A model generated the notes under the pieces. It did not search any database. It worked only from the letters and a program-made list of their open reading frames with translations, and was not told where the DNA came from. A stretch of DNA of 27,597 nt from a virus. Its lineage: Duplodnaviria; Caudoviricetes. Below, one piece after another: positions 9,493 to 26,242 of the stretch. The position numbers and the translations under genes were made by a program. Position 1 is the first letter of the stretch. The number at the start of each line of letters is the position of its first letter. The stretch lies in the IMG/VR virus record IMGVR_UViG_3300048033_000639, positions 1-27,597 of that record, one strand, 5' to 3'.

Positions 9493-9499
9493 TATTTAG
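9493..9499 (-). promoter_or_regulatory. Late-promoter variant CTAAATA heading the neck/tail genes
   Basis: Lies just after the capsid terminator, where re-initiation is needed; no -35 seen. Confidence 0.55.
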
Positions 9500-9506
9500 C
9501 CAATAT

Positions 9507-9545
9507 AAAAAAGAGCCCCTAGAAACTTGTAGTAACTAAGGGCTC
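9507..9545 (-). terminator. Intrinsic terminator after the major capsid gene
   Basis: Minus strand GAGCCCTTAG-13 nt-CTAGGGGCTC followed by a T run. Confidence 0.75.
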
Positions 9546-9593
9546 AATCAGGAATTGTAGTATGTCAGTAACTACAATTTTATTTATTAGATA

Positions 9594-10448
9594 TTAGTCT
9601 GAGTCAGAACCAATAATCTTCACACCATGTGCGTTCTGCAGTATGCCTTGTCCACATACAGCAGTCATCATGATGTCTTCTGCTCTTGCAGCAGCCTGAC
9701 GCTGTGTTTCCATTGCGATACCGCCACGCATTGCGTGTCCAATAGCAGTTGGGCTGAATACAGCGCCTACTGCGTTTAGTTCTGTATCAGTGTCAGTGTC
9801 TAAATCACGCTTAACTAAGCTAGATTCAAAGATTTGGCAACCAGCAACTGATCCAATGTAGAAGCCACGTAATACGTCACTGCCAATTTCGCTAGCAGTT
9901 AGGTTTGCACCACCTGCTGTAGCAAGTTCTTTCTTCAACTGAAGAGCTTGACGTGGTGAAACAACAGCACTTAATGGTCCAACAACTTTGTTGTTGCGCA
10001 GTGTAGCAACTGCTTCAAAGATGTTGTCAACAGTGATTGCTGAGTCTTCTGTGCCTACTGAGTTAGTAAAGCTGTTGAATAGAGCAAACACGTCTGTGTC
10101 CATCTTTTCAGCAATAGCTCTACCAGCTTGTGCGCCTAAGTCAGCGATAACGTCACGCTGTGCTGAGTCACGTAGCATGTCAGTAACTTGGAAGTATGTA
10201 CCAATTTCAGCAAGTGTAATATCTACACTAGTAGTATTAGTGTCTGCTGCACTTGGTGCACTACCTTCAGTTAAGCCAGCTGCTGTTACAGCTGAGTATA
10301 CTGGTACTTGTAGTACTTTACCTGCATTTGATGGTACATCAAATGGAGTAACGATTGAGCGAGCAACTGATTGCTCATACATGGCGAACTGGGCTTCTGC
10401 AAGCAGTTTAGTAAACAGTTCGCTATTGATTGTGGTGTTATTAGCCAT
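9594..10448 (-). CDS. Major capsid protein (HK97 fold, scaffold-dependent type)
   Basis: 284 aa after the scaffold; GKVLQVPVY, LTEG, AIAEKMDTD, AVVSPRQ, IGSVAGCQIFES; AAGGAG RBS and a downstream terminator. Confidence 0.9.
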   Translation of the reverse strand: MANNTTINSELFTKLLAEAQFAMYEQSVARSIVTPFDVPSNAGKVLQVPVYSAVTAAGLTEGSAPSAADTNTTSVDITLAEIGTYFQVTDMLRDSAQRDVIADLGAQAGRAIAEKMDTDVFALFNSFTNSVGTEDSAITVDNIFEAVATLRNNKVVGPLSAVVSPRQALQLKKELATAGGANLTASEIGSDVLRGFYIGSVAGCQIFESSLVKRDLDTDTDTELNAVGAVFSPTAIGHAMRGGIAMETQRQAAARAEDIMMTAVCGQGILQNAHGVKIIGSDSD

Positions 10449-10475
10449 AATAATAGTCTCCTTAAAGTGTTAGGC

Positions 10476-11153
10476 TTATCTACGCCTTTGTTGTGCGTAG
10501 ACTTTTCTATGTTCTGGATTTGACATATCCAGTTTGCTTACGTCCAAGGGCTCTTTGCTATTATTAATAGAACTCTTTGTATTAGTAGTTGATGGTGTTG
10601 CTTGTACAAAGTGCGGGTTTGAATCTAGGAATTCCTTGACTAAATCGTCTACTCCTAGTGCTTCGCCTGCATCATTGTAGCGCACACTTCCGTCACTACC
10701 TACAACTTCAACGGATCCCTCTTCACCTAAACGCACATTGTTTTTAAGCAATGATTTAACCTGTTCTGGTTGTACTGAGCGATACTTTGCTGCTGCATTC
10801 AACAAAGGTGTATCCACCTTGTATTCTTTAATAATTGCATCACGCTTTTGGATTTCAGCGTCTTTTTTAGCAGCCATTTCCTGTAGAGTCTTTTCAAATT
10901 CACCACGCTTTAGTTGCTCTTCTTGACGTTGCGCTTCCGCCTTTGTTTTGAGCTCGCGTAATTCCTCTGGATCTCCCAAGTCTTGGTACGGCTTAACTGC
11001 TTTCTGAGTTACAGCATGGCGCATTTTTGCCATTGCATCATCAAACTCTTGCTGCGTATAAGTCTTTTCTACTGGTGCCTGAGCTTCAACTGTTTGTGAC
11101 TGGGTGTCAGTTACCTCTGTGTCTACCGTGGTTTGTTGGTCCATCGTTACCAT
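10476..11153 (-). CDS. Capsid scaffolding protein
   Basis: KTYTQQEFD motif, coiled coil, NPHFV, basic C-terminal helix; directly upstream of the capsid gene. Start may be ATG 11144. Confidence 0.8.
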   Translation of the reverse strand: MVTMDQQTTVDTEVTDTQSQTVEAQAPVEKTYTQQEFDDAMAKMRHAVTQKAVKPYQDLGDPEELRELKTKAEAQRQEEQLKRGEFEKTLQEMAAKKDAEIQKRDAIIKEYKVDTPLLNAAAKYRSVQPEQVKSLLKNNVRLGEEGSVEVVGSDGSVRYNDAGEALGVDDLVKEFLDSNPHFVQATPSTTNTKSSINNSKEPLDVSKLDMSNPEHRKVYAQQRRR

Positions 11154-11180
11154 ACCTCCTAATGAGTAATTTTTGTAATG

Positions 11181-11546
11181 TTATTTATGTTCAATGCGTT
11201 TTCTTATGGAATTTAAGTGATTTCTTTCCTGTTGTATGATTACTGGTACAGGAGTACTATCACCTTTGTATCTTGGATGACTCCATAAAAATTCATATTG
11301 AGGATACTGCACATTCAGCTTGTCAGCCCATTTGTTTAGCAGTCTAGGTGATGCATTTACATGCACATAAACTCTTGCACTGTAGCCATCTAAATCTTCT
11401 ACGGTGCCCAGCCACGCTGCAATGTCTATGGTATCTTTTTTCCAAGCAGCCAAACTCCAAGGGCAAACGCCTTGAATCTGTTGGAAATAGTCGCACCAAT
11501 TAACCTCTGCGTGACTTTTTCTTTTTGTTTTTCTTTTTCTTACCAC
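11181..11546 (-). CDS. Hypothetical protein with W..YF..I..VCPWS motif; start uncertain
   Basis: Open frame with a folded-looking core; the GTG start lies inside the upstream basic micro-ORF. Confidence 0.6.
   Translation of the reverse strand: MVRKRKTKRKSHAEVNWCDYFQQIQGVCPWSLAAWKKDTIDIAAWLGTVEDLDGYSARVYVHVNASPRLLNKWADKLNVQYPQYEFLWSHPRYKGDSTPVPVIIQQERNHLNSIRKRIEHK
11182..11189 (-). promoter_or_regulatory. Late-promoter variant CATAAATA before scaffold and capsid
   Basis: Same core motif at a gene junction. Confidence 0.55.
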
Positions 11547-11559
11547 GAGCCATTGCCAT
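11500..11559 (-). CDS. 19-aa Lys/Arg-rich micropeptide MAMARGKKKKNKKKKSRRG
   Basis: GAGGAG RBS 7 nt before ATG 11559; TAA at 11500-11502; below the ORF-track size cut-off. Confidence 0.6.
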   Translation of the reverse strand: MAMARGKKKKNKKKKSRRG

Positions 11560-11570
11560 GTGTTTTCTCC

Positions 11571-11765
11571 TCATTTACTTTTTTTAGTTATTGACAAGCG
11601 TGTGCGTTTGCCACGCTTTTTAGCACTGCCCTGTGCTATACGCATGCCTTTGTTAAAGCTGGAGCTGCTACGTGTTAGACTTCTCCCACCACGTCTAAAG
11701 TAGCTAGCTCCTGCTTTGTGCCCCCCGCAATCAGTTTTACACTGACTTCCTCTGTATGTTGCCAT
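11571..11765 (-). CDS. Small highly basic protein (64 aa)
   Basis: GAGGAG RBS; K/R/S/G-rich with C-x3-C-GGH. Confidence 0.65.
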   Translation of the reverse strand: MATYRGSQCKTDCGGHKAGASYFRRGGRSLTRSSSSFNKGMRIAQGSAKKRGKRTRLSITKKSK

Positions 11766-11787
11766 AATGGCTCCTCACGCTCTGCTT

Positions 11788-11856
11788 TTAATTTACCACT
11801 TGCCATAGTAGTATTCCTACTACTACTAATATGTATGCATGTACAATATTAATCAT
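11788..11856 (-). CDS. Possible 22-aa hydrophobic peptide MINIVHAYILVVVGILLWQVVN
   Basis: ATG overlaps the portal 3' end and the ORF fills most of the gap; no clear RBS. Confidence 0.3.
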   Translation of the reverse strand: MINIVHAYILVVVGILLWQVVN

Positions 11857-13330
11857 CACTAGATGTTAACAGTGCAGCTTTTGCTGTGTCAATGTCTGCT
11901 TGATTGATTTCATTGTGCATTGCTAATATTTGTGCATCAGTATAACCTTCCATAATCATTTGTTGAATATGTGCAGTTCTGTTAGCACCTGATGTTGTTA
12001 CTGGATGCTTCATTTCTTCGTCATAGTCTACATCCATCCATTGTGCAACCTGTTCGTCAATTTCTCTCAACAGTCTTGGATCAGTTACAGTTTCTTTGGC
12101 AATGCGCAACTGAGTAATTTCATTTGCTGTGTCTCTAATGTTGAAGCTGCCTGGATATTCAAGTGTGCCATCCCAGGTGTATCCTTGATAAAAAGCATAC
12201 AGTCTCCAAATTTGCTCTTCTGCTAATTCTAAGTTGTCTGCTTTTTCACTTAGTTTAGCATTTAACAGAGCAAACTCTGTTTCCATTGCAACGCCACTCA
12301 TTGTTTTTGATTCTGTTGCTCTTACAGCACCTGTGTTTGCCATCTTGTCAATAGCACTAACACTTGCTGTGATTGAATTGTATATTGAATTAATGTCAGT
12401 GCTTACATCCAGTAAATATGGTTTTAGTCCAGGATCTAAATCGTCTGGCATTGATACTACAGCACCTGCACCACCAACAGCTTCTACTGTGGGTGTTTTA
12501 ACCAATGCTGGGTGTCCATTTAATCTAATTGATTGTTCTACTTCTGAATATTCATTGTAGATTTTCTTTTGGTGATCCGCAATGTCTGCAATGTCTGAAA
12601 TGCCAAGTCCACGCACAACAGCACGTTGGTTATAAGCAATAACAACTGGAACCATACCTAGTTCATTTTGCTCTTGGTAGCTTTCAATTACTTCACGCTT
12701 GCCAGTGTTGACTTTGGTTGTAGTAATAGTGTCATTGGTCCATTCTTTGATTACAGTTTCATCACCATTTACATCTTCAATGTATTTGATGTAGTCAAGT
12801 GTGTACTTGCCATTGCGGCTTCTGTTCCAACTCCAGTCTGTTACTACTAGAGGTGATAGTATGCTTAGATAAGGACGTACACCTTGGGCTATTTCTTCTG
12901 CTCTATTGGCTGCACCTATGTTTGGTTTTGTTACCATTACAAATGCATGTCCAAATATACTTGCGTAAGTGCTTACTTCTTTCATAAATGCATCAAGACT
13001 TCTGCCATCATAATCAGCGTCTCTGAGGAAATCATTTAATGCTGGGTCATTTTCAATGCTTCCTAGGTCTCTGTATGGCTTATTACGGAATAAGAAACTG
13101 ATGTAAACACTTATTACACTTTTACAATGGTTATCCAATGGTGTTGCATCAAGCCTTGCTTGGTATTCATCACCTGTTTCCAGTTGGTACTGTGTTAGGT
13201 GTGCAGCACGACGATAGTCTTCTCCACCCACATAACTTTCTAATAGGTACTCCCAGCGTTGCTGGTACCTTTCATATGTTTCATTTGCCGCTATGGCATA
13301 TACGTAAGCATCTTCTAATAGTCTTTGCAT
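11849..13330 (-). CDS. Portal protein
   Basis: 493 aa right after TerL; Y..RL..T..DNHCK, DADYDGRSLD, FGHAFVMV, N.LG.VPVV, GISDI.DIA, SGVA...EF..LN..L motifs. Confidence 0.9.
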   Translation of the reverse strand: MQRLLEDAYVYAIAANETYERYQQRWEYLLESYVGGEDYRRAAHLTQYQLETGDEYQARLDATPLDNHCKSVISVYISFLFRNKPYRDLGSIENDPALNDFLRDADYDGRSLDAFMKEVSTYASIFGHAFVMVTKPNIGAANRAEEIAQGVRPYLSILSPLVVTDWSWNRSRNGKYTLDYIKYIEDVNGDETVIKEWTNDTITTTKVNTGKREVIESYQEQNELGMVPVVIAYNQRAVVRGLGISDIADIADHQKKIYNEYSEVEQSIRLNGHPALVKTPTVEAVGGAGAVVSMPDDLDPGLKPYLLDVSTDINSIYNSITASVSAIDKMANTGAVRATESKTMSGVAMETEFALLNAKLSEKADNLELAEEQIWRLYAFYQGYTWDGTLEYPGSFNIRDTANEITQLRIAKETVTDPRLLREIDEQVAQWMDVDYDEEMKHPVTTSGANRTAHIQQMIMEGYTDAQILAMHNEINQADIDTAKAALLTSSDD

Positions 13331-13334
13331 TTTC

Positions 13335-14567
13335 TTACCCCAGTTTGTGTCCCCATCTAGTGGGTTGTTCTATTTCTCCGTAGTCGCGTTTGATTGGGAA
13401 CAATCCATCAACGCAGTATCCTAGTGCGTCCATCATGTGATCCAAACCACTTGACTTGTCAGGTTGAGTTGTTCCTTCTCTATACACCTGCTTTTCTAAA
13501 CCTTCAATTGTGTGTTTGCACGTTGGTGCAATCAAAAGATTTATTGCACCTGCGTCATTTGACAGTCTTGAATTGACTGCATTAATTCTGTCTCTCACAG
13601 GTGTGTGTGCTTTGTTGGCTTTTACTATCCAGCCTGCATTTTGCAGTATGCGTATGTCAGTAACACCGCCTGCACTTGTTTTGCGTTGGCGTCCTGCAGG
13701 ATCTGGAAATGCCATTATTCTAGCTCTTGGATAGCGTGTGGTTACTTCGTCTACTAATTCGTTTGTGTTTGATCCAAATATTCTTATTTCATCAAATGCA
13801 TGCAGTGTGTCACCTTCACGTGCAAACAGCACAGCACTCATTGGATCAATGTTAAAGTCACAACCTAAATAGATTGTGTGTGGTGTTTTACCCACATATT
13901 CATGCACATGACGTTTTCTATCAAATGCATAGTATACTCTACCAGCATATTCTTCAAATGTAGCAAGAAACTCTTGACGGAAACTGCGTTCGTCTAGGTC
14001 CTGTCTTGCTGATTCTATTTCTTCTAGTGGTACATTGCCGCCGTCAATGGTTGTGTATTGAAAACTGCACCATGATTTTGATGTTTCTTCCATTAGGTAC
14101 ATGTCATGTGCCCAGTTTGAGAAACCTTTGGGTGTGCCTATAAACAGTGCGCCACCTTGTCTGTCTGCTAGTGTTGGACGCAGTACTTCTGCCCATGCAG
14201 TTTTGTCCATTTCAGCAAATTCATCCAACACAAGAAAGTCTAAGCCTACACCACGTAAGCTGTCTGCATTGTCTGCGCCTTTGAGTGATATAATTGACGA
14301 GTTTTTAAGATGTACAGTTAGTTCGCTTTCATTGATTTTGCTAACCCAGCGTAGTTTTAACAGTTTGGCTTTGAGTTTTTGCCATGCAATCAACTTGGCT
14401 TGACGGTATGTGGGTGCTACGTACCATACTGTCTTGTTGGGCTCTTTTGCATGTTTGCATAATTCTCTAATAGCAAGGTGTGTTTTACCAAAGCGGCGTC
14501 CTGCCACTACCACCTTAAAGCGGTGTGGTGCAGCAACTATTTCTTGTTGTGCCCAACGCAATGCCAT
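13335..14567 (-). CDS. terL: Terminase large subunit
   Basis: Walker A VVAGRRFGKT, YVAPTYRQAK, Walker B LRGVGLDFLVLDE, motif III GTPKG, nuclease GCDFN and DHMMDALGY. Confidence 0.97.
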   Translation of the reverse strand: MALRWAQQEIVAAPHRFKVVVAGRRFGKTHLAIRELCKHAKEPNKTVWYVAPTYRQAKLIAWQKLKAKLLKLRWVSKINESELTVHLKNSSIISLKGADNADSLRGVGLDFLVLDEFAEMDKTAWAEVLRPTLADRQGGALFIGTPKGFSNWAHDMYLMEETSKSWCSFQYTTIDGGNVPLEEIESARQDLDERSFRQEFLATFEEYAGRVYYAFDRKRHVHEYVGKTPHTIYLGCDFNIDPMSAVLFAREGDTLHAFDEIRIFGSNTNELVDEVTTRYPRARIMAFPDPAGRQRKTSAGGVTDIRILQNAGWIVKANKAHTPVRDRINAVNSRLSNDAGAINLLIAPTCKHTIEGLEKQVYREGTTQPDKSSGLDHMMDALGYCVDGLFPIKRDYGEIEQPTRWGHKLG

Positions 14568-14905
14568 TATGCGAATCTCTCCTCACACTTGATTCTAAAG
14601 CGTCTTGCTTCAGTTATACCGTCTACTGTGGTAATTGTACATGTAACAGTATAGATGTTTTTGTCTGAGCCGCCACTTAGTTCTACGTAGGCAAGCAATC
14701 CATCTCCTGTTATACCAGAACTTTCAATTGCAAGTGGTGCACTGTCACCTGTGATGGTTTCTACAGTGTAAACTGCACTTGCAAGTTGATCTGAATCAGG
14801 CATCCAATCAGTGGTCCAATCCATTTGGTACACCAATTGTGCCGCTGGATCTTTGGAAATATAACTTCCTTTGTGATCCTGTTTGTATCCTGTTATTGTT
14901 GTCAT
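14567..14905 (-). CDS. Small structural protein, probable fibre adaptor
   Basis: KDP.A.L.Y..DW...W motif and beta-rich sequence; coupled to the 1380-aa fibre-like gene. Confidence 0.5.
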   Translation of the reverse strand: MTTITGYKQDHKGSYISKDPAAQLVYQMDWTTDWMPDSDQLASAVYTVETITGDSAPLAIESSGITGDGLLAYVELSGGSDKNIYTVTCTITTVDGITEARRFRIKCEERFA

Positions 14906-17900
14906 ATTTCTAGCACCCTTGTTTCTTGTTCAACAGTTAAATCTCTATCCTCATCAAGTATTTTAATACTTCTTGTTTCTTGTGGTATCAACAGTGTCCT
15001 AAATGGATCAATTGCTATCACATCACCAGCTGTTACAGTTACTACAAATAGATCTAATTCTACTAGACCCTGTACAACCCTGTAGGCGTTTGCATAGAAT
15101 GGTGCAAACTGTGCCTCAAGCTCAGCTTGACTAAATCTAATTCTATCACCAACAACTGTTAAACTTGCAGCTGTATTTAACCCTGAGCCCGCTGGCTGTA
15201 TTCTTGTTACGGAACTAGCAAGTGTAAACTCAGCATCTGTTACAAGTTCAAAGCCTTTGGTTTGTGTTACAGTAACTTCATCTATAGTTGCTGCTGCACT
15301 TATTGCGCTTGTACCAGGACGTATTCTATCAACATCAACTGCAAGCGTGGCTAGTGTGCTGATGCTAGATTCAAAGCTAACAGTGTTGAATGCTTGTGCT
15401 GTTAGTGTGGTTGTGTTGTTGAGTATAGCTGCTACTACAGCAGTAAGGCTTGGTGTAGCTGCAATAGTTGCACTAGCTGCAAGCTGTGTTTCTGCTGTGC
15501 GTTTTGCATTTACAACAGCTGCAAAGCTCATTACACCGTCAATGTCTACAGTTGTTCTAGTAGTCTTTGCTGCTGTTACACTCATTGTTGCAGTTACACT
15601 TGGTGTAATTGCGCCTGGCGATCTCAGTCTCTCTGCAGAACTGTTAAATACAGCAGACGCATCTAGCACAAATTCATTGTCTCTTGTGCGTAGTGCTGTG
15701 ACACTCATTGTTGCACTTGCACTTGCGTCAATCTGGGCAGGACGTAACAATCCACCTGTGGCACTTAGTGTAGCAGCTACACCTAGTGTGGTGTCTGCAA
15801 AGCGTATTCTATCACCTGATGTTGACAGTGCAGCACTTGCACTTAGTGTAGTGTCAGCAAAGCGGACTCTGTTGCCGTCTATAGTTTGAGTTGCTGTTAC
15901 TATGTTATCCTGTGACGTACCTGTAATAAGTCTTGCAAGTACAGTCCAAGTAAAACTAGTGTCACTAGAACTGGTAGTAAAACTACTGTTGGTAAGAAAT
16001 TGTGCGTTGCTTGTACTGCTCAGTGTGGTTGGTGTAACTGCTAGTGTAGCTGTTGTTACTGTAACTGTGCTGGTTTCATATGTAAAGACGCCATCACTGC
16101 CAGCATAATCTTCTGGAGCATAAATTGGGTTTTCATTATCTTCAATTAGAGTCTGACTTAACCAAATATTTCTAACTTGATCATAATCGCTTGAGTCAGG
16201 AAAAGCGTTCCAATATCCATTACCTGCGGTTAAGTACCATTGGTCCTTGGTTTGTATATCAATACTGCCAAGAAGCTCTGTTGATCCAGTTTCAACGTAG
16301 TAATTTGCTATCTTTGTGCCTGTGTCATCAATTACAACAACTTTACCTGTTTCTGCATTCAACACCAATACATTATCGTCTGCGTCAACTGCAATTTTAA
16401 CTGAATCTGTGCCATCTTCGTCAGTTTCAATTTGACGTATCCAATTTAAGTCTAGACTTGAATCAAATTGTGCAATGCCTTGATTGCCCAATGAATTGCT
16501 GCTTATGTAAACTAAGAATCGTCCTTGACTGTCTAGTTCTGCATCCAGTGGTAGTACACTACTACCAGTATAATCAATAAGTTTACTGATGAGTACACTG
16601 CCATCTGTGTCTAGTTTTTGTAGTACGGTTACTCTTTCAGTACCACCTGAGGTTTGAGCATGTGTGGCTAGATACATTTCACCACTTGAGTTTGCATCTA
16701 TGTAGGTGTCAAAGTAGTCAAGACTTGCGCCATCATCAACGTCAATGCTCAAATCATTTGTAGTTAAATCACTCAAGTCAATGCGTATGACTCTTGTTTC
16801 ATATGATTCAGTGCTTGAAAAACCTGCAATATACAAATAGCCATTTCTAATACGTGCATTTCTTAGGCTTGCTTGTAGTATCTGTCTAGACTGTGCTACA
16901 CTACCATCAAATACATTGATTTTAACAATATAAACTCTGTCGTCTGTTTCACCACTGGTTGTGCTTCTACTGCCAAGTACTACATATATGTGTTCATCAT
17001 AATATTGTATCTCAGCAACTTCTGCATAGTCAATAAAGTTTGTGTAAGATTTCTGCCACTGTATATCACCAATAGTATTGGCTTTTACAAGTACAAAATC
17101 ACTTCCAGTGCCCACTTCCAAACCTAAACCATAGAAGTTGTTGTAGGCATCATAAACAGTCTTAGTGCCACTATAGGTATTATTAGTGTTTAACCAAGCA
17201 GCTAGGCGCATTCTTTCTGGTAACAGTGTTGTTGTAACACTTAGTGCAAATTGGGCTGACAGTGCGCTTGCTGCAGGTTTTATATTACCTGGTGTAGCTG
17301 CAAGTGTAGCAGTGCTAGAAAGGTTGCAGTCAGCTGCAACAGCTTTGATTGCATCTACAGCTAGTGTAGCTGTAGTGTTGACGTCAACAGCTGTTGCTCT
17401 TGTTCTTTGCGCAGTTGCACCTAGTGTGGCACTAGCTGTTGCTGTAACAGTACCGCCTACTTGTTTGATACTGTCAGCACTTAGTGTTGCAAATGTTTCT
17501 AGATAAGCATCACCTGGATTTATAGCAATAGTAGCGACAGAGAAACTTGCCGCACCTGATATATCAACAGTTGCACTCACAGTCTTTGCTGCTGTTGTGC
17601 TTAGTGCAGCCTGTGTGTTTAGGTTTATTGTGCCCTGTTCTATCTCAGCAACTGCTGCAACAACTGTTGCACTCGCTGCGAGTGTGCATTGTGCCAGCAC
17701 AGTTTTAGCAGCATCAGCACTTAGTGTTAGTGCGCTGTCAAGGCTTGCAGCACCCAACAAGTATTCACTTACATCATCTGAGAAGTCAGTGTCAAAGTGT
17801 GCAAGTAGTATGGTGTTGGCTTGTTGTGCAGCTGTGAGTGTGTATGCACTAGTTGGCGTTGTAAAACTGGTGGTGTTGGTTGGAACTAATAAACTGGTGC

Positions 17901-19044: not shown

Positions 19045-19058
19045 AGGCTCAGTCTCCT

Positions 19059-19760: not shown

Positions 19761-19769
19761 ACTGTCTCC

Positions 19770-20390
19770 TTAACCAAAGTTAGTTGCTAGTGATGCATAA
19801 TAGGTTGTTCCATCATAGAACACGCTGAGCACGTCAATGTTGTTTGCACCTGTTGACAGTGTGTTTGTGCCATCTGCAAACAGCATAGTTGATGTAAGTT
19901 CTTCACCACCTGTTGCACTCTGTTTGATGATTAGTGTCATTGACTGTCCTGCTTCTGGGTTTGCAAAAGCATTGAATGTGATATTGCCAGTGAGTGTGAT
20001 TGACTGTACGTTACCATTTGCTACATCTGGTGTAATTGTGCCTGTGGTGCTTCCACCTGTGTACACAGTTTCTTTGTAGTCTTTGAAGTTGACATTGCTT
20101 ACTGTGTTGCCCTGCCCATCTAGTTCACCACCCAACTGTGGAGTAGTGTCATCTACAACATCTTGTAGCCCACCTGTGGGCTTTGGTCCAACTTCAAAAT
20201 TGCCTGAAGATGAATTGTAAATTAAAATATATTCGTTTGCGTTGCCAGTGAGATCTACATCACTCAAATCACCAATTGATTCACTGGTGATGTTCTCTAG
20301 CTTGTCTGTGTTTAGGTTATCAAAGTTAGCATCGCCCTCAGCAAATGTTAGGGCGCTGCCTTTGACGCTTCTTAATACTATTGTGCTCAT
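19770..20390 (-). CDS. Virion fibre/decoration-like protein
   Basis: N-terminal R..KGS.LT..E.D.NF.NL, SIGDLSDV, DTTPQLGG.LD, C-terminal G.SMTLIIKQ...D.LS..YDGT.YY. Confidence 0.6.
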   Translation of the reverse strand: MSTIVLRSVKGSALTFAEGDANFDNLNTDKLENITSESIGDLSDVDLTGNANEYILIYNSSSGNFEVGPKPTGGLQDVVDDTTPQLGGELDGQGNTVSNVNFKDYKETVYTGGSTTGTITPDVANGNVQSITLTGNITFNAFANPEAGQSMTLIIKQSATGGEELTSTMLFADGTNTLSTGANNIDVLSVFYDGTTYYASLATNFG

Positions 20391-20415
20391 GGGCGTGTTT
20401 CTCCTTGTAAAGTGA

Positions 20416-20442
20416 ATGAGGGTGCCACTAGGACACCCTCAT
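20416..20442 (-). terminator. Stem-loop after the 130-aa gene (weak terminator or stabiliser)
   Basis: ATGAGGGTGTC-CTAGT-GGCACCCTCAT on the minus strand; poor U tract. Confidence 0.5.
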
Positions 20443-20450
20443 AGTGTGTA

Positions 20451-20843
20451 TTAGTCTAGGCTAATAGTTAGGTTACCACTTGAAATTTGGAAAGTGTCCC
20501 CATCTTCAATAGTTTTTGAAGTTGTTACTGCACCGTGGAACAGTAAGTTGCCAGTTGTTAGTGCATCATAGATACCAATGTGTGAAATAGTACCCCAGTT
20601 GCCACCTGACGCTGCATCAAAAGTGATGGTTGCGTTGGTTGACGCTGAGCCTGCACTTGCTGCTGCAAATGTAGCTTCTTTACGTGCATATCCGTTGCCT
20701 GATACTTCACCGCCACCACTAGCATCATCTAATGGGCTAGTTGTGTGTAAGCCTACATATACGTTGGTTGGTGCTGTAAAAGCTGTGGTAGCTAGAGCAT
20801 GGTCCAGTACCTTGTTTTCTAAATAGTCGCTTGCTGCGCTCAT
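20451..20843 (-). CDS. Small Ala/Thr/Gly-rich structural (fibre subunit-like) protein
   Basis: SDYLENKVLD, EVSGNGYAR, WGTISHIGIYDA...GNLLF motifs of a common phage structural family; own promoter motif, AAGGAG RBS and 3' hairpin suggest high expression. Confidence 0.7.
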   Translation of the reverse strand: MSAASDYLENKVLDHALATTAFTAPTNVYVGLHTTSPLDDASGGGEVSGNGYARKEATFAAASAGSASTNATITFDAASGGNWGTISHIGIYDALTTGNLLFHGAVTTSKTIEDGDTFQISSGNLTISLD

Positions 20844-20888
20844 GTTGTTTCTCCTTTAAAGGTTTTTTGCTATTGCGATTCGCACTGT

Positions 20889-20896
20889 TATTTATA
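20889..20896 (-). promoter_or_regulatory. T4-type late promoter TATAAATA heading the fibre-terL-portal gene run
   Basis: Exact match, intergenic, coding strand. Confidence 0.65.
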
Positions 20897-20907
20897 CATT
20901 TCTAAAA

Positions 20908-21600
20908 TTAGTGCAAATCATTCCAGGTTGTTCCGTCATAGCCTTGGAACTTGCTGGTAGTTTCATTAAAAATTAATGTGCCTGCTGTTGGTGACAGTGC
21001 ATTTCTTTCAGTAGTGGTATAGTTGCCTAGTTCTAGCACACTTTCACTTTGTGTTGCACCATCATTGTAGCGCAGGCTTACTGTGTCTGCTGCTAGGTTG
21101 ATAGTGCCATCATATGTGCCTGATGCAGTGCTGGTTTCAAGCAATAGTTCGCCTGCATCATCCATAAACAGTCTTACCTTGCCGTTGTACACTCTTAGAT
21201 TGAGGTTTTCTCCACCTTCAAATGTGGTTACACCTGTGATGTTTAATTTAAATGTGTCAGTTTGAAACTGTACATCTTTGGTAGCATAACCTGAAGGAGG
21301 TTCAAACACAATGTCATCAGTGGTTTCATCACCTATCTGTATTAGATCTGAATTGAGTGTACCTGCGCCAAATGAGTTGGTAATTGTAACAGTTTTGGCT
21401 GTGTTGTCACCAGCTATTGTGACGCCACTGCCTGCAACGAGTGTGATTGTGCCATTCAGTTCTGCAACTACGTTGGTGCCTGATGTGTCCGCTTGCAGTG
21501 TAACAGTAGCGTCACGGAGATTTTCAAAGTTTGTGTCCATTTCATCATTGGTAAGAGGTGACCCTTTGGTATCTCTAATTGTTAGTACTGGTTTTGTCAT
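20908..21600 (-). CDS. Virion fibre-like protein
   Basis: N-terminal RDTKGSPLTNDEMDTNFENL; C-terminal YTTTERNAL...G.LIFN.TT.KFQGYDG..W; start set at ATG 21600 (GGAG RBS). Confidence 0.6.
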   Translation of the reverse strand: MTKPVLTIRDTKGSPLTNDEMDTNFENLRDATVTLQADTSGTNVVAELNGTITLVAGSGVTIAGDNTAKTVTITNSFGAGTLNSDLIQIGDETTDDIVFEPPSGYATKDVQFQTDTFKLNITGVTTFEGGENLNLRVYNGKVRLFMDDAGELLLETSTASGTYDGTINLAADTVSLRYNDGATQSESVLELGNYTTTERNALSPTAGTLIFNETTSKFQGYDGTTWNDLH

Positions 21601-21805
21601 TGTGTTCTCCAAGTGTATTTAATGTTCTAAGCATATGCACTTGATCTCTCTGAATTTGATTAACTGCTTTGCCAATGTTGTCTACATGCTCTGTAGTAAT
21701 TTTAAGGTGATGCACTATTTCATTGTTCATAGTTTCTAGTGTTTCTATTCTTGTCTGCATGATTTGTAACATTTCCCAGGGGTCCAAGTCGTCAAACATA
21801 TTCAT
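21575..21805 (-). CDS. Small coiled-coil hypothetical protein
   Basis: 76 aa with a heptad pattern; GAGGT RBS. Confidence 0.55.
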   Translation of the reverse strand: MNMFDDLDPWEMLQIMQTRIETLETMNNEIVHHLKITTEHVDNIGKAVNQIQRDQVHMLRTLNTLGEHNDKTSTNN

Positions 21806-21811: not shown

Positions 21812-22192
21812 TTACCTCTTTCTTTCCCAGTTTCTATCAGGCTGATAGTATTGTCCTTTGTCACGTTGACGACATATCACTACATTGTCTGAGCTCCAAG
21901 GTAAATCATTTGTGCGTCTGTACATGGTGTAGTTGTCCTTGAGTCTGCCACGCTGTAGCCATAGTTCTGTGGGCCACAACTGTTGCCAGTCTTCCCAAGT
22001 TAGCTCATACTCTTCGTTACGGAAACGTGCTTGTGCTTGGTGTTTCTTCCAACCATAGTACTTGTCATGTTCTATTGGGTCAGGACCACTCTTCCAATCA
22101 TGAGGTGAAGGAAGTCTACCTGGCAGTCCATCGCCTGGTGTTCTAGAGTAAGCATATTTTTTTGGAACATAGTATTTGTTTGTATAGTTCAT
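21812..22192 (-). CDS. Hypothetical protein resembling a degenerate His-Me (HNH-like) nuclease fold
   Basis: QA.FR.E.Y.LT.E.W..LW....RGR....Y.M.R.....W..DNV.I pattern; catalytic residues not evident. Confidence 0.4.
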   Translation of the reverse strand: MNYTNKYYVPKKYAYSRTPGDGLPGRLPSPHDWKSGPDPIEHDKYYGWKKHQAQARFRNEEYELTWEDWQQLWPTELWLQRGRLKDNYTMYRRTNDLPWSSDNVVICRQRDKGQYYQPDRNWERKR

Positions 22193-22635
22193 GTGCCAAA
22201 CTCCACTATGTTGTCTATGGGCTGTTGTTTACTACTGTCATCATTGGGCAAGTCAATTGACATAGCTCTACACCATATCTCTCTGCCTTGACAAATCATC
22301 TTCCACGCTGTGCCTTTGTAGTTGTGTGGATCTTTGCGTGTGCGGTATGGTGTAAGGTAGCTGCCTGAGGTTGAAATGTGTCCATAGCGTTCTAGCGCAC
22401 GTTCTAGTTCTAGCACTGTGGCTATCTCTGCTAGTTCTACAAAGTGTCCAAACTCTTTGTCAATCACTTTGATGCCTCTTAGATACATTGTCCATAAATC
22501 ATTGTCCATTGAGTGCAGCATGTCCCATATGGTTTTGTTGTTGCGTTGTAGTTTGCCGTGTGTGAGTATTTCTTTGTTGAGTGTTTCACTAACTTTGCGA
22601 AATACCATTAGGCAGTCATTGTCGTAGTTTGCCAT
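22189..22635 (-). CDS. Hypothetical protein (148 aa)
   Basis: GAGGAG RBS; TAATG and ATGA overlaps with its neighbours. Confidence 0.7.
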   Translation of the reverse strand: MANYDNDCLMVFRKVSETLNKEILTHGKLQRNNKTIWDMLHSMDNDLWTMYLRGIKVIDKEFGHFVELAEIATVLELERALERYGHISTSGSYLTPYRTRKDPHNYKGTAWKMICQGREIWCRAMSIDLPNDDSSKQQPIDNIVEFGT

Positions 22636-22788: not shown

Positions 22789-22817
22789 AGTATATACTAT
22801 TATTTATCTAATGTCAA
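22789..22817 (-). promoter_or_regulatory. Sigma70 promoter TTGACA-17-TATACT with GATAAATA in the spacer
   Basis: Read directly; intergenic, just after a terminator and before an RBS. Confidence 0.85.
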
Positions 22818-22904: not shown

Positions 22905-23378
22905 TTACTTGGTTTCTTCTGGGTTGTCAACCGTTTTTTCATACTCTTCTTGAATTTTTTCTTTGTGTTCCTCAGAAACAGTTGGGTCATCATCTTCATC
23001 ATCTGTCCAAGGTAGTGGTGAGTTGGCTTCTGTGTTGAGAGGTTGATCCGTCATAGCCAAGATGTTTTTAGCAAGGAATATCTGCACCGCTGCATTCATG
23101 TTTACACAAGCGTTCTTGAGCATGGCTCGTCTAAGAGTTATCTTTAACTCTTCTCTGCCCTTTGTGAGATATTCGCTAAAGTTGTAGCGTAGAGTTTGTT
23201 CAGTTACACCATAAAAGTTGGCAATGTCCGTGTTAGAGCAGCCAAGACTTGCAAGTTCTTTAACTTGATCAGGTGGTACTACTTGTTTGTTGTCGCCACG
23301 ACCCACTTCAAGTCCTACTATGGTAGCTTCTACTAGTTCTTTGGGTTTGGGTCCTGTTTTCTTTGGTTCTTCGCTCAT
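22905..23378 (-). CDS. terS: Terminase small subunit
   Basis: GPKPK N-terminus, HTH GCSNTDIANFYGVTEQTL, then LRRAMLKNA...AVQIFLAKN typical of TerS; acidic tail. Confidence 0.75.
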   Translation of the reverse strand: MSEEPKKTGPKPKELVEATIVGLEVGRGDNKQVVPPDQVKELASLGCSNTDIANFYGVTEQTLRYNFSEYLTKGREELKITLRRAMLKNACVNMNAAVQIFLAKNILAMTDQPLNTEANSPLPWTDDEDDDPTVSEEHKEKIQEEYEKTVDNPEETK

Positions 23379-23383
23379 GTGTA

Positions 23384-23391
23384 TATTTATA
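23384..23391 (-). promoter_or_regulatory. T4-type late promoter TATAAATA 5 nt before the terS ATG
   Basis: Exact match; no SD before terS. Confidence 0.65.
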
Positions 23392-23619: not shown

Positions 23620-23627
23620 TATTTATA
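23620..23627 (-). promoter_or_regulatory. T4-type late promoter TATAAATA
   Basis: Exact match overlapping a stop codon, ahead of the RBS of the 71-aa gene. Confidence 0.55.
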
Positions 23628-24054
23628 AGGCACTCATTCTGTACCTATATCCATCTTTTAGTGGGTATGCTTGGCTCATGTATTTGCGTTCACCATCAAG
23701 GATCATAACACATGAGAGAGGATCACCATACTGTGTTATTTCAAATAATTTACAGTTTTCATTTACTGCGGTTCTTGTTACACGTATGCCTTGGTACGTG
23801 CGATAATAATACTGTAGTTCTTCAAACATTCTATTTTCACACGCTCTACCACCTTGCCAAAAACCTCTGTCTGCATACACTTTAAACTGTGTGCCAAATT
23901 CTTCACGTGCTGTTACAAAGTATCTTTTTAGATTATTATTATATCTTGTGATTTGCCAACGCTCATGATTGCACATGCTAGGTGCATGGTGTGCGTGTTC
24001 AAGTTTTTGTGATTGTGCTGCTTCAAATGCACGATATTCTTCTTGACTTAACAT
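23623..24054 (-). CDS. Hypothetical protein (143 aa)
   Basis: TAATG coupling with the upstream gene. Confidence 0.7.
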   Translation of the reverse strand: MLSQEEYRAFEAAQSQKLEHAHHAPSMCNHERWQITRYNNNLKRYFVTAREEFGTQFKVYADRGFWQGGRACENRMFEELQYYYRTYQGIRVTRTAVNENCKLFEITQYGDPLSCVMILDGERKYMSQAYPLKDGYRYRMSAL

Positions 24055-24557
24055 TAAAACAAACTCCTTGTTCTGCGTCCTTCAACTTGTGTTAGAGGAT
24101 TTTGCCAGGTATAAATTCTATTGTACTGTGCGTTTTCAATTGTTTGCAGTTCAAACTCATGTGTCCATCCATCAATTGTAAACTTCATAGTAAGCTCTTG
24201 TGTGCTTCTATCTAATACAAGTAATGCAACACTAAATGGCACACGCTCCAGTGGTTGTGCGCCTTTGGCCCATTTTGTTCTGTGACTGAGCTTTCCAATC
24301 CATAGTTTATATTGTTGTCCATGTTCTTTGCGTATGTCTCGCCATGCCTGCACATATTCATCATATTGATTCCAGCCATCATCTTCTGCACCTTCAAGAC
24401 TATTGTATATCTCTCTGCGTTCTTGTGTAAGGCGCCAGGTAAACTTGGCTAATTTACCTTCACGATTTACAATGTCCATATTAACTTTGATGCGATCCTT
24501 TTCTTTGAATTCTCGCACATTTGCTTTAAAATAGTGTATCTGTTGCTGTGTAATCAT
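24054..24557 (-). CDS. Hypothetical protein (167 aa)
   Basis: GGAGGT RBS; ATGA overlap. Confidence 0.75.
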   Translation of the reverse strand: MITQQQIHYFKANVREFKEKDRIKVNMDIVNREGKLAKFTWRLTQERREIYNSLEGAEDDGWNQYDEYVQAWRDIRKEHGQQYKLWIGKLSHRTKWAKGAQPLERVPFSVALLVLDRSTQELTMKFTIDGWTHEFELQTIENAQYNRIYTWQNPLTQVEGRRTRSLF

Positions 24558-24802: not shown

Positions 24803-24843
24803 TTTATAGTCTCCTGTTAACCAAAAGTATTTATCACATTCTT

Positions 24844-24872
24844 ATTATAAGTGGTTTTTTTTGGTTTGTCAA
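24844..24872 (-). promoter_or_regulatory. Perfect consensus sigma70 promoter TTGACA-17-TATAAT, with GATAAATA downstream at 24828-24835
   Basis: Read directly; A tract upstream. Confidence 0.9.
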
Positions 24873-25017
24873 CCTTTTTAGCACATAGGCGTCTAAGACT
24901 GCGTCGTTGTACTACTCTGGGTGTACAACTAATGAAATTGTTTAACCTGCATTTGCGGGGTGTTTAAGCGCGGCGCAATTGGTGTTGTGTGGTGGTTTGA
25001 GTTTTTATGGCTCTTAA

Positions 25018-25056
25018 TAAGAAAAGCCCCCTACTAAAAATGCTAGTAGAGGGCTT
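25018..25056 (-). terminator. Intrinsic terminator ending the long structural gene run
   Basis: AAGCCCTCTACTA-GCATTTT-TAGTAGGGGGCTT followed by TTCTT. Confidence 0.8.
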
Positions 25057-25139
25057 AGTAGTGTGCAACTAGGTGATTAACATATCTAGGAGCTCTAATC
25101 AAAATGGCTTATAAAGATTAGATGTTGTTGCTCACTACA
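25018..25139 (-). ncRNA. Candidate structured small RNA (about 120 nt)
   Basis: Bounded by TAATAAATA and a terminator; outer stem GTAGTGAGCAAC/GTTGCACACTAC (11 of 12 pairs) and inner stem TCTAATC/GATTAGA. Confidence 0.45.
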
Positions 25140-25142
25140 CTT

Positions 25143-25466
25143 TTATTTATTATTTTTATAATTTTTGTAATAATTTTTGAACCACTCACTAGCTTGAGCC
25201 TGTGGTATGTCAAAGTCACCTGTGGTGGGATTTAAATAGTGTTGACAACTAGCACAATATCTGCGCCAGTGTGGTGTAGGCTGCTTATGCTGACGCACAT
25301 GCACATGTCTATCAACAACACTTGCGTCACAGTCATCACATTCAACTACACTATGATTGATTTTTTCAACATGCGGAAATTGCGCATGTTCTGAGTTGCG
25401 GCCAGTTTTGCAGGGCTTGCTCCATTCTAGCAAGTGTTGATGTTCTGGTGGTATTAAATGCTTCAT
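25143..25466 (-). CDS. Zinc-ribbon-like protein (CDDC...CASC)
   Basis: Two CxxC pairs; start set at ATG 25466, 4 nt after CTAAATA. Confidence 0.6.
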   Translation of the reverse strand: MKHLIPPEHQHLLEWSKPCKTGRNSEHAQFPHVEKINHSVVECDDCDASVVDRHVHVRQHKQPTPHWRRYCASCQHYLNPTTGDFDIPQAQASEWFKNYYKNYKNNK

Positions 25467-25473
25467 GCTGTAT

Positions 25474-25740
25474 TTAGAGCATGAGGGCAATGACTCCTAC
25501 AAAAGCGGCTATGATAGTTGCTGTAGCGCCTATAAGTGCAACAATAATATTGTTGTTGCCTTTTTTAAAGTCAGTTTCAATACGATCCATACGCTCGTCT
25601 ATTCTATCAAAGCGGTGATCTATTTTTTCAAACTGAGTGTCTATGTCTTCTAGTTTTTGTTTCATCTGTTCGTAGCGCAATTCGCACTTGTCTACATGCA
25701 CTTCAAGGTTTTCTCTTTCAAGTGCTGTAACTTCTGACAT
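25474..25740 (-). CDS. Coiled-coil protein with a C-terminal transmembrane helix (holin-like)
   Basis: Heptads FEKIDHRFDRIDERMDRIE then hydrophobic IIVALIGATATIIAAFVGVIALML; follows the tail genes. Confidence 0.55.
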   Translation of the reverse strand: MSEVTALERENLEVHVDKCELRYEQMKQKLEDIDTQFEKIDHRFDRIDERMDRIETDFKKGNNNIIVALIGATATIIAAFVGVIALML

Positions 25741-26216
25741 TAGACAACCTCAGTAAGATCCGCTGCTAGTGTTGCTGCTACACTTAGTGTAGCTTCACTG
25801 CCACCTAACACAGTCATTAGACGCACTACACGCCAAGCACTGCCATCATACACACTCAAACAGGGTGCGCCTGCATCTCCATCTGTTGAGTAAGCAACAT
25901 CACCCTGTGCAACACCCACAAGATCCGTGATTTGTTGTGTTGTTAGAGTTTGTAAACGCAGTACATTTTGTATTTTAACATAACCAGTTGTTGGTGCAAG
26001 TGTTAGGTTACCTGTTGGAGTTACAGTCAGAGGAACTTGACTACTACTAATAGTACCACTTGCATTTAATACGCAAACACCACTGGCAGTGTTGGCTTCG
26101 TCAATAATGGTATTGAGAGCAACCACAGCATTGTACAAATCAACCCTAGCTAGGCTTGGGCTATCTGCGTCTGAGTCTAAATTTGTTGTTTGTATCTGCG
26201 TATTTGGAAATGCCAT
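25740..26216 (-). CDS. Virion fibre-like protein (158 aa)
   Basis: Beta-rich; TLTT.QI..L....GD..Y...VYDGSAW module shared with the protein at 20908-21600. Confidence 0.55.
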   Translation of the reverse strand: MAFPNTQIQTTNLDSDADSPSLARVDLYNAVVALNTIIDEANTASGVCVLNASGTISSSQVPLTVTPTGNLTLAPTTGYVKIQNVLRLQTLTTQQITDLVGVAQGDVAYSTDGDAGAPCLSVYDGSAWRVVRLMTVLGGSEATLSVAATLAADLTEVV

Positions 26217-26235
26217 GTTTTTTTGTTCCTCTGTA

Positions 26236-26242
26236 TATTTAG
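26236..26242 (-). promoter_or_regulatory. Late-promoter variant CTAAATA
   Basis: Intergenic, ahead of the RBS of the 158-aa gene. Confidence 0.5.

What the first reader, a model, noticed from the sequence alone, without database searches (positions are those of the whole stretch)
9493..26242. T4-type late promoters throughout a small siphovirus with no recognisable late sigma factor: candidate satellite using a large phage's transcription machinery
Seen: the core TAAATA lies on the coding strand at 12 junction or intergenic sites: 9493, 9581, 11182, 20889, 21616, 22801, 23384, 23620, 24828, 25144, 25471 and 26236. Three are exact TATAAATA. I noticed only one coding-strand copy deep inside a gene (about 15174), though my scan was by eye. 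Copies precede the scaffold/capsid, neck/tail, fibre/terL and terS units with no evident -35. Known: TATAAATA is the late promoter read by the T4 gp55 sigma with gp33 and the gp45 clamp, a system of large T4-like myoviruses. None of the unknown ORFs looks like gp55. Inference: virion genes are switched on by a co-infecting large phage, making this a capsid- and tail-autonomous, transcription-dependent satellite, unlike P4, PICI, PLE or cf-PICI elements, which borrow structural parts.
Basis: partly seen in the sequence, partly recalled or inferred. Interest (0 to 1): 0.9.

Follow-up and report, generated by a model that had tools for sequence, protein, structure and literature searches.

The report
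Small phage borrowing another phage's sigma
This 27.9-kb marine phage encodes a whole head and tail but no recognisable gene to copy its DNA, digest the cell wall or read the T4-type TAAATA box placed before its virion genes, so it likely builds particles only in cells where a large co-infecting phage supplies the late sigma factor, a predicted bacterial counterpart of virophages.

Summary
Observation confirmed; interpretation largely supported but untested. All 12 TAAATA sites are real. The total count is at chance level, but 10 of 14 coding-strand copies lie within 60 nt of a start codon, also after removing stop-codon overlaps. The genome closes as a 27,853-bp circle; the missing 256 nt lie inside the tail-tip gene. 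The box precedes 39 of 42 scaffold-gene orthologues, is depleted inside genes on both strands, and gives leaderless N4-5-ATG starts like gp55-encoding phages. Three sister phages with the same virion module lack this wiring; the two cultured ones carry their own lysin and regulators. No sigma, gp33, gp45, polymerase, primase, integrase or endolysin was found; two folded early proteins are not sigma-like, and no non-virion family was found in all five complete relatives. New here: a phased ~11-bp A/T signal upstream of the box, not found at comparable strength in sampled helper classes. Flanks fit uncultured jumbo phages with a CBB/GAP32-type sigma slightly best. No helper or host is identified. 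The scan reported this idea on at least eight other genomes before.

The parts
9493..9498 (-). TAAATA box before the head-tail adaptor/neck/tail unit (48 nt to ATG 9444), behind a terminator-like hairpin
   Evidence: 19 of 33 adaptor orthologues carry it
9581..9586 (-). TAAATA box just behind the major capsid gene
   Evidence: same place in G001, G002, G003, G006
11182..11187 (-). TAAATA box before scaffold and capsid genes (28 nt to ATG 11153)
   Evidence: 39 of 42 scaffold orthologues
20889..20896 (-). TATAAATA box heading the gp80-like/fibre/gp77-like/terL/portal unit
   Evidence: same place in G001, G003, G004, DSL-LC06
21616..21621 (-). TAAATA box 15 nt before ORF 20908-21600
   Evidence: also in G001
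22789..22817 (-). sigma70-type promoter (11 of 12) with the TAAATA box 22801-22806 nested in its spacer: likely dual early/late promoter for ORFs 22635-22763, 22189-22635, 21812-22192, 21575-21805
   Evidence: same nesting in G001
23384..23391 (-). TATAAATA box 5 nt before the terS ATG (23378): predicted leaderless start
23620..23627 (-). TATAAATA box before ORF 23387-23602
24828..24872 (-). perfect sigma70-type promoter (24872-24844) followed by TAAATA 24828-24833: likely dual early/late promoter for ORFs 24554-24802, 24054-24557, 23623-24054
24803..25142 (-). largest non-coding stretch, with a terminator-like hairpin 25056-25024; candidate origin (not tested)
25144..25149 (-). TAAATA box at the end of the zinc-ribbon ORF, facing the non-coding stretch
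   Evidence: same place in G001-G004, G006, G007
25471..25476 (-). TAAATA box 4 nt before the ATG (25466) of the zinc-ribbon ORF: predicted leaderless start
   Evidence: N4-5 spacing at the same gene in G001, G003, G006, G007
26236..26241 (-). TAAATA box before ORF 25740-26216 and the holin-like ORF
1..9444 (-). siphovirus-type tail and neck: tip (with 26981-27595), GNAT, hub, Dit, tape measure, chaperones, neck, tail tube, terminator, adaptor
   Evidence: PHROGs/Pfam
9594..14567 (-). head and packaging: capsid 9594-10448, scaffold 10476-11153, portal 11849-13330, terL 13335-14567
14567..21600 (-). fibre/appendage module: gp77-like, 1380-aa fibre, LamG protein, gp80-like
21812..22192 (-). HNH-like protein (phrog_16521), found in 8 of 10 clade genomes; candidate DNA-binding effector
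22189..22635 (-). 148-aa helical protein of an unnamed family (157 representatives); 5 of 10 clade genomes; not matched to sigma or gp62
22905..23378 (-). terminase small subunit
   Evidence: phrog_309, E 6.8e-8
24054..24557 (-). 167-aa beta-barrel protein of unknown role behind the perfect sigma70 promoter; 2 of 10 clade genomes
25143..25466 (-). 107-aa zinc-ribbon protein, itself behind a TAAATA box; 7 of 10 clade genomes
25474..25740 (-). holin-like (XhlA/haemolysin-like) membrane protein; no endolysin found beside it
   Evidence: phrog_1193, E 3.4e-7
26981..27595 (-). C-terminal part of the tail-tip gene; joins 1-3015 across a 256-nt gap in frame

Best explanation
This is a complete small siphovirus-type phage whose virion operons sit behind a T4-family late-promoter box that it has no recognisable gene to read, so it likely depends on the late sigma factor of a co-infecting large phage (gp55 family, perhaps a CBB/GAP32-type jumbo phage). 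Shown: full head, tail and packaging genes; the box, its position, conservation and selection; two canonical sigma70 promoters in the non-virion region; no detectable sigma, gp33, gp45, polymerase, primase, helicase, integrase or endolysin. Inferred steps: (1) after entry, host sigma70 transcribes about seven small early genes; (2) when a helper's late sigma appears, it redirects host RNA polymerase to the (A/C)TAAATA boxes, starting about 5 nt downstream, often on leaderless mRNAs; (3) the phased A/T tracts upstream would bend or wrap DNA on the polymerase and so stand in for the sliding-clamp activation that helper DNA enjoys; (4) DNA synthesis and cell lysis would also use helper functions, while the phage packages its own DNA into its own particle.
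For: Positional enrichment survives stop-codon and composition controls. Box within 110 nt of 39 of 42 scaffold orthologues versus 2 of 42 for the capsid gene, 0 of 17 tail tube, 0 of 18 Dit, with no conserved -35. Depleted in coding DNA of 10 clade genomes on both strands (23 vs 98 expected, rank 5 of 4096; 31 vs 119, rank 2), as in gp55 phages (HTVC008M 41 vs 66 and 39 vs 76; DSL-LC03 antisense 13 vs 49, rank 1), but not in three sister phages (49 vs 52; 69 vs 53). Leaderless geometry: in-frame ATG 5 nt after the box in 8 of 21 clade cases (2 more at 4), 11 of 18 in HTVC008M, 45 of 58 in T4-like loci, 17 (plus 9 at 4) of 31 in two jumbo contigs, 0 of 7 in sisters. Genome closed, gap inside the tip gene. 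No gp55, CBB-type sigma or Sigma70_r2 match in six frames of the window and relatives; the PHROG library recognises real gp55, gp33, gp45, gp62 at E 1e-29 or better. No non-virion family was found in all five complete genomes (window, G003, G008, G010, DSL-LC06), while the box is enriched in all. Cultured sisters HTVC111P/112P carry HTH regulators and a lysozyme or M15 peptidase (HTVC111P also a DnaD-domain protein) and show no enrichment. Canonical TTGACA-17-TATAAT-type promoters across the clade show the host's housekeeping sigma is ordinary, so TAAATA is not its -10.
Against: No transcript, host, helper or co-infection data. About ten small ORFs remain unexplained and only two were folded; the HNH-like protein is in 4 of 5 complete genomes and the zinc-ribbon in 3 of 5, so a self-encoded, non-sigma reader is not excluded. 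The strong 11-bp A/T phasing is not shared by the helper classes sampled (HTVC008M 782 of 1000 nulls, CBB 928 of 1000, G014 250 and G015 56 of 1000), which could mean a different reader. Only a LamG domain is shared with the two jumbo contigs. T4 gp55 with gp33 needs the DNA-loaded clamp (PMC2988020, passages), which a satellite without helper-type origins might not get. No integrase, repressor or partition gene explains how the phage waits for a helper. G002 carries a 516-aa ORF with family-A-polymerase-like motifs by eye (no family hit), and the DSL paper states replication genes were present in all seven of its genomes although the DSL-LC06 record lists none.
Confidence: 0.62

Rival explanations
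1. Autonomous phage with a self-encoded, unrecognised late factor (for example the HNH-like protein, the zinc-ribbon protein or the 148-aa helical protein) that reads TAAATA, replicating with host enzymes.
For: Seven small ORFs lie behind sigma70 promoters; HNH-like protein in 8 of 10 and zinc-ribbon in 7 of 10 clade genomes and in neither of two sisters; clade-specific A/T phasing; a holin-like gene is present.
Against: No family found in all five complete genomes; the 148-aa protein is missing from DSL-LC06, G010 and near-complete G006 and has no sigma match; the 167-aa protein is a beta-barrel; the zinc-ribbon gene is itself behind the box; exact convergence on the gp55 core and N5 spacing would be needed; TAAATA does not fit a sigma70 -10, so an ordinary activator would not suffice.
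Confidence: 0.15
2. The box is read by a host alternative sigma factor (or a gp55-like gene resident in the host), so the phage is host-state dependent rather than helper dependent.
For: Host unknown; -10-only promoters with periodic A/T signals exist in Campylobacter and Mycoplasma (PMC3325076, passages); no integrated or helper-linked copy found in GTDB.
Against: The clade's early promoters have a canonical -35, unlike those hosts' housekeeping promoters; no conserved second element up- or downstream; I know no host sigma with a TAAATA core (recalled); replication and lysis genes are also missing.
Confidence: 0.11
3. Facultative parasite: the phage can replicate slowly alone by read-through from its sigma70 promoters and uses a helper's late sigma as a booster.
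For: All genes lie on one strand of a circle, so read-through from the two sigma70 promoters could reach virion genes; dual early/late promoters are common in the clade.
Against: Terminator-like hairpins break the circle (before 9493 and 22817 by eye); no endolysin or initiator found.
Confidence: 0.09
4. The hexamer is a by-product of TAA stop codons and AT-rich junctions or a translation signal, not a promoter.
For: Total count at chance level; 5 of 12 sites overlap a stop codon.
Against:: enrichment without stop overlap, operon-head specificity, avoidance on the antisense strand, absence in sisters.
Confidence: 0.03

Closest known systems
T4-family late transcription (gp55, gp33, gp45; T4 TATAAATA, cyanomyovirus NATAAATA, CBB/GAP32 ATAAATA; PMC2988020, PMC2984593, PMC5259590, passages read)
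   Same: -10-only TAAATA core before virion operons, no -35, start about 5 nt downstream, nested early/late promoters as described for RB49 and S-PM2
   Different: None of the reading genes is present; genome 28 kb instead of 150-380 kb; siphovirus-type tail; phased A/T tracts upstream
MiniFlayer and MulchRoom satellite phages of Streptomyces (PMC10690885, passages read); Ando (PMC13587820, passages read)
   Same: Own capsid and packaging genes, no primase or replicase, predicted parasite of a large virulent phage; MiniFlayer also lacks an integrase
   Different: This phage encodes a complete long tail with tape measure, Dit, hub and tip; those papers' main texts do not mention promoters or sigma factors (0 hits); they are cultured and shown to need a helper, this is not
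Virophages Sputnik, Mavirus, Guarani (PMC6723459, passages read)
   Same: Own virion, genes behind the helper virus's late promoter
   Different: Eukaryotic hosts and giant-virus factories; unrelated capsid lineage (recalled)
P4, PICIs, PLEs, cf-PICIs
   Same: Parasites of phages; P4 late promoters respond to the helper's activator Ogr (recalled)
   Different: They integrate, carry their own replicase and borrow capsid or tail parts (PMC10690885 passages); none of that holds here
Phage DSL-LC06 (OR003941; proposed 'Nanhuiviridae', PMC10611076 passages read)
   Same: Same virion gene order, terL 52% and capsid 40% identical, same boxes before scaffold, adaptor, gp80-like and terS genes
   Different: LC06 carries glycosyl- and methyltransferases; the paper's main text does not mention promoters, sigma or satellites
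Pelagiphages HTVC111P/112P/026P/202P
   Same: Related head and tail module (terL 49-51%, capsid 36-40%)
   Different: The two examined (HTVC111P, HTVC112P) have HTH regulators and a lysin, HTVC111P a DnaD-domain protein, and no TAAATA wiring

Membership tests
T4-family (gp55) late promoter | TAAATA core upstream of virion operons | tested here: met
T4-family (gp55) late promoter | no conserved -35 element | tested here: met
   position table of 69 sites; two window sites overlap separate sigma70 promoters
T4-family (gp55) late promoter | start site about 5 nt after the box | tested here: inconclusive
   indirect: leaderless N4-5-ATG peak; no RNA data
T4-family (gp55) late promoter | transcribed by a gp55 holoenzyme | not testable with these tools
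   needs in vitro or infection experiment
T4-like phage | encodes gp55, gp33, gp45, gp43, gp23-type capsid | tested here: not met
   controls
Satellite virus of MiniFlayer/MulchRoom type | own capsid and packaging genes | tested here: met
Satellite virus of MiniFlayer/MulchRoom type | no primase or replicase | tested here: met
   no hit among all ORFs of the closed genome; unknown ORFs remain
Satellite virus of MiniFlayer/MulchRoom type | propagation only with a helper | not testable with these tools
   uncultured
PICI / cf-PICI / P4 / PLE | integrase and own primase-replicase | tested here: not met
PICI / cf-PICI / P4 / PLE | borrows capsid or tail from the helper | tested here: not met
   complete head and tail gene set
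Virophage (Lavidaviridae) | helper late promoter before its genes | tested here: inconclusive
   box matches gp55-family promoters but the helper is unidentified
Virophage (Lavidaviridae) | eukaryotic host, non-tailed capsid lineage | tested here: not met
   tailed-phage capsid, portal, terminase, Shine-Dalgarno and sigma70 signals
Proposed 'Nanhuiviridae' (DSL-LC06 group) | gene-sharing cluster with DSL-LC06 | tested here: inconclusive
   shared order and 22-68% identity over most virion genes; no network analysis run
HTVC111P-type pelagiphage | own regulators, lysin and early module | tested here: not met
   versus 10, 11
Sigma factor (ORF 22189-22635) | sigma region-2 fold or profile match | tested here: inconclusive
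   no match by profile or fold search; absence from a fold list is not exclusion

The most novel reading that the evidence does not exclude
A widespread class of fully tailed 'bacterial virophages': virion-autonomous phages that lost replication, lysis and late-control genes, rewired their operons to the late sigma of large or jumbo phages, and evolved phased ~11-bp A/T tracts that let their promoters fire without the helper's sliding clamp and out-compete the helper's own late genes.
Probability: 0.35. Interest if true: 0.9.

Novelty: new variant of a known kind. Interest (0 to 1): 0.76.

Why it matters
If true, a common group of small aquatic tailed phages now counted as ordinary lytic viruses are parasites of large phages, which changes how virus-driven mortality and jumbo-phage abundance are modelled. 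It would add a satellite strategy not found in my literature searches for bacteria (whole virion of its own, borrowed late sigma) and gives a simple genomic test for it: promoter box without reader. The phased A/T signal makes a direct biochemical question: can a gp55-family sigma be driven hard without gp45?

Tried and rejected
Archaeal TATA box: rejected, since SD or ATG lies 4-20 nt behind the box and sigma70 promoters are present. Stop-codon artefact: rejected. Sigma in a missing segment: rejected, gap is 256 nt in the tip gene (the bridging run may be the window's source). ORF 22189-22635 as a gp62-like clamp-loader decoy: top VIA rows included clamp-loader collar domains (2gno Z 6.2, rmsd 3.4, 91 aligned; 7sgz Z 5.3; 8tw7 Z 4.3), within the range of chance for helical bundles; hhalign to gp62 gave probability 0.2% (two-sequence template); kept as a lead only. 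ORF 24054-24557: beta-barrel, best Z 6.2, only uncharacterised phage proteins in BFVD. Zinc-ribbon ORF: no homologue besides itself, Atlas scores under 0.9. Host search: GTDB scans found no capsid relative and three small portal contigs, no integrated prophage. One of them (L134, clade member) shares a fragmented Chitinophagaceae bin (G011) with a 2.8-kb contig bearing a CBB-type late sigma, but no gp23 and only that one contig of the jumbo region were found in the bin: anecdotal, could be mis-binning. Gene sharing with cultured large phages: none useful. gp45/gp33 in jumbo contigs G014, G015 not found, but they are 60-67% complete and the control rang nowhere. The 80 jumbo-sigma loci showed an 11-bp signal (0 of 1000 nulls, other phase) but are repeats of a few orthologous promoters; whole-contig tests gave power 0.008 versus 0.163 (45 of 1000). 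No RNA holder listed. No tRNA genes in the window. No complex prediction was sent. Not-in-print claim rests on paper searches; supplements (CBB Table S7, DSL Table S2) were not read.

Full report
Observation. The 12 sites are at the stated places on the coding (minus) strand, three as TATAAATA. The total of 20 is what shuffles give (mean 22.0), so only position carries the signal: 10 of 14 coding-strand copies fall within 60 nt of one of 38 curated starts (p 3.6e-9; third of all hexamers, after two Shine-Dalgarno words), 0 of 6 antisense copies do, and similar TAA-initial hexamers score 0-3. Holding stop codons fixed, 6 of 20,000 shuffles reach 10; without the five stop-overlapping sites 6 of 9 remain upstream (p 1.1e-5). 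Sites 22801 and 24828 are coupled to canonical sigma70 promoters.

The genome. All genes lie on one strand. PHROGs and Pfam on 37 ORFs plus two corrected small ORFs give a full siphovirus-type set: terS, terL, portal, scaffold, capsid, neck, tail tube, chaperone-like genes, tape measure, Dit, hub, tip, fibres, and a holin-like protein. No polymerase, primase, helicase, integrase, clear repressor, sigma or endolysin was found. An 11,488-nt contig of run X1 (possibly the window's source) covers 27455-27597 with its bases 1-143 and 1-11089 with its bases 400-11488: the genome is a 27,853-bp circle, the 256-nt gap keeps the tip gene in frame (86 codons) and matches the stretch missing against G001. 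The 'missing segment' cannot hold a sigma gene. Laid runs are seawater and estuary metagenomes.

Relatives. TerL and capsid scans returned 34 and 63 IMG/VR loci. I read nine clade genomes whole or nearly so: G001-G004, G006-G008, G010 and DSL-LC06; G003, G008 and G010 have terminal overlaps and DSL-LC06 is deposited as circular. All nine show upstream enrichment of the box (p 4e-11 to 6e-4; my own heuristic gene caller), including G008 and G010 whose tail or capsid genes belong to other lineages. After dereplication the box is within 110 nt of 39 of 42 scaffold orthologues (misses: L100, G005, HTVC112P) and 19 of 33 adaptor orthologues (misses mostly distant forms), against 2 of 42 capsid, 1 of 25 terL, 0 of 17 tail tube, 0 of 18 Dit and 0 of 8 tape-measure genes: it marks operon heads. 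The consensus is (A/C)TAAATA with no conserved -35. Sister phages with the same virion module, G005 and pelagiphage HTVC112P, show no enrichment; HTVC111P/112P are annotated with HTH regulators, a lysozyme or M15 peptidase and (111P) a DnaD-domain protein.

It behaves like a gp55-family promoter. Against synonymous-codon shuffles the hexamer is depleted in coding DNA of the 10 clade genomes on both strands (23 vs 98, rank 5 of 4096; 31 vs 119, rank 2; window alone 2 vs 11.8 and 5 vs 10.5), as in HTVC008M and, antisense, DSL-LC03, but not in the three sisters. An in-frame ATG follows the box at 5 nt in 8 of 21 clade cases (2 at 4 nt), 11 of 18 in HTVC008M, 0 of 7 in sisters, 45 of 58 in 80 T4-like gp55 loci and 17 (plus 9 at 4 nt) of 31 in two jumbo contigs. 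This fits a start about 5 nt after the box, and excludes an archaeal TATA box. Published consensus sequences are TATAAATA for T4 and NATAAATA for cyanomyoviruses (PMC2984593, passages), a/gC-variant for Aeh1 (PMC2988020, passages) and ATAAATA for CBB, in which no gp33 or gp45 homologue was detected (PMC5259590, passages).

No reader found. Six-frame searches with the gp55 profile (10 records), the CBB-type sigma profile (5) and Sigma70_r2 (5) gave 0 matches; the library detects true gp55, gp33, gp45 and gp62 easily. The best self-encoded candidate, ORF 22189-22635 behind a dual promoter, belongs to an unnamed family of 157 representatives, folds confidently (pLDDT 85) and matches no sigma by fold or profile; it is present in 5 of 10 genomes. 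ORF 24054-24557 is a beta-barrel found in 2 of 10. The HNH-like (8 of 10), zinc-ribbon (7 of 10) and coiled-coil (6 of 10) families are commoner but none was found in all five complete genomes; they were not folded from alignments, so a non-sigma reader stays possible. Canonical TTGACA-16/18-TATAAT-type promoters occur in all 10 genomes, several with the box nested, like the overlapping early/late promoters described for RB49 and S-PM2; the host's housekeeping sigma is therefore ordinary and TAAATA is not its -10.

A new feature. Upstream of the box, A/T content oscillates with a period of 11-11.5 bp, peaking about 5, 15, 26 and 37 nt before the first T (about -16, -26, -37, -48 if the start is 5 nt after the box). 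Power 0.163 over 80 sites, 0 of 2000 rotation nulls; 9 of 10 genomes at 27 or fewer of 500, G008 not (233 of 500); the window's 12 sites 0 of 2000; stronger where the upstream DNA is non-coding (33 sites) and repeated in 84 sites from other loci. Sham anchors give nothing (TAA stops 124 of 1000; starts 265 of 1000), deep in-gene copies a weak signal (31 of 1000). Sites are partly orthologous, so not fully independent. HTVC008M, DSL-LC03, CBB and the T4-like loci lack it (their non-coding subset 26 of 1000), the jumbo contigs are at most borderline. Periodic A/T signals replace the -35 in Campylobacter and Mycoplasma promoters (PMC3325076, passages), an 11-bp period is commonly tied to negatively supercoiled DNA (PMC4132750, abstract in listing), and clamp-free gp55 transcription needs supercoiled templates. 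My inference: these tracts let a borrowed sigma work on DNA that lacks the helper's clamp. No earlier scan note held these words.

Which helper. Unidentified. Flank bases fit two uncultured jumbo contigs with a CBB/GAP32-type sigma slightly best (mean log2 likelihood -11.34; DSL-LC03 -11.62, CBB -11.73, T4-like loci -12.04, HTVC008M -13.29), a small margin. That sigma type is abundant (about 2,500 stored stretches), TAAATA is the top upstream hexamer around it, and one clade contig shares a fragmented bin with such a sigma gene, which is anecdotal. Only a LamG domain is shared with the jumbo contigs. The host is unknown; sisters infect SAR11 and DSL-LC06 was predicted to infect Pseudomonadota.

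Comparison and verdict. It would work like a virophage (helper late promoter, own virion; PMC6723459, passages) and resembles MiniFlayer/MulchRoom (own capsid, no replicase), but encodes a whole long tail. It is not a T4-like phage, PICI, cf-PICI, P4, PLE or EPIP (PMC12822802, abstract). Searches listed no paper on a bacterial satellite wired to gp55-family promoters; most subscription journals are outside this library. The scan has proposed the same reading on at least eight other genomes; those notes are not independent support, and one (30,615 letters) has the length of my G010. Confidence in helper-sigma dependence 0.62; interest 0.76; new variant of a known kind.

Noticed in passing
G002 (L039:779-2326, +): 516-aa ORF on the opposite strand in a close clade member, with family-A-polymerase-like motifs by eye and no Pfam/PHROG hit; possible replication initiator that the window lacks.
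   Followed up: partly
window 11181-11546: 121-aa protein with CPWS and WLWSHP motifs between portal and scaffold, in 7 of 10 clade genomes, no family hit and no match in cultured phages; G006/G007 have a different CPY-type protein.
   Followed up: partly
window 24803-25142: 340-nt non-coding stretch with a TAAATA box at its 5' end and a strong hairpin 25056-25024; could yield a small RNA or hold the origin. In G008 and G010 the equivalent region holds several boxes.
   Followed up: no
window 22189-22635: Weak structural resemblance to clamp-loader collar domains (Z 6.2, 5.3, 4.3); if real it could recruit or jam the helper's clamp loader.
   Followed up: partly
window 11571-11765: 64-aa very basic protein (88% identical in G001, also G006, G007) behind the portal gene; possible DNA-condensing or core protein.
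   Followed up: no
G002 10038-10892 and G003 4122-4976 (coding-strand numbering): Capsid genes only 39% identical to the window's while adaptor is 88% and terL 78-80%: a capsid-gene swap; both also have two tail-tube genes.
   Followed up: no
L036 (DSL-LC06) 1732-9017; G008 10986-11930; G010 9379-9909: Clusters of glycosyl- and methyltransferases in otherwise minimal genomes, possibly for virion or DNA modification.
   Followed up: no
clade10 coding DNA: Words containing GTAC, TCGA and AAGCTT are as strongly avoided as TAAATA, pointing to restriction sites of the host; could help identify it.
   Followed up: no
window 14902-19044: 1380-aa fibre with long Ala/Thr/Ser repeats flanking variable domains; a candidate for binding host or helper particles.
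   Followed up: no
G015 1-9215: Jumbo contig with at least 28 tRNA genes; codon matching to the small phages was not tested.
   Followed up: no
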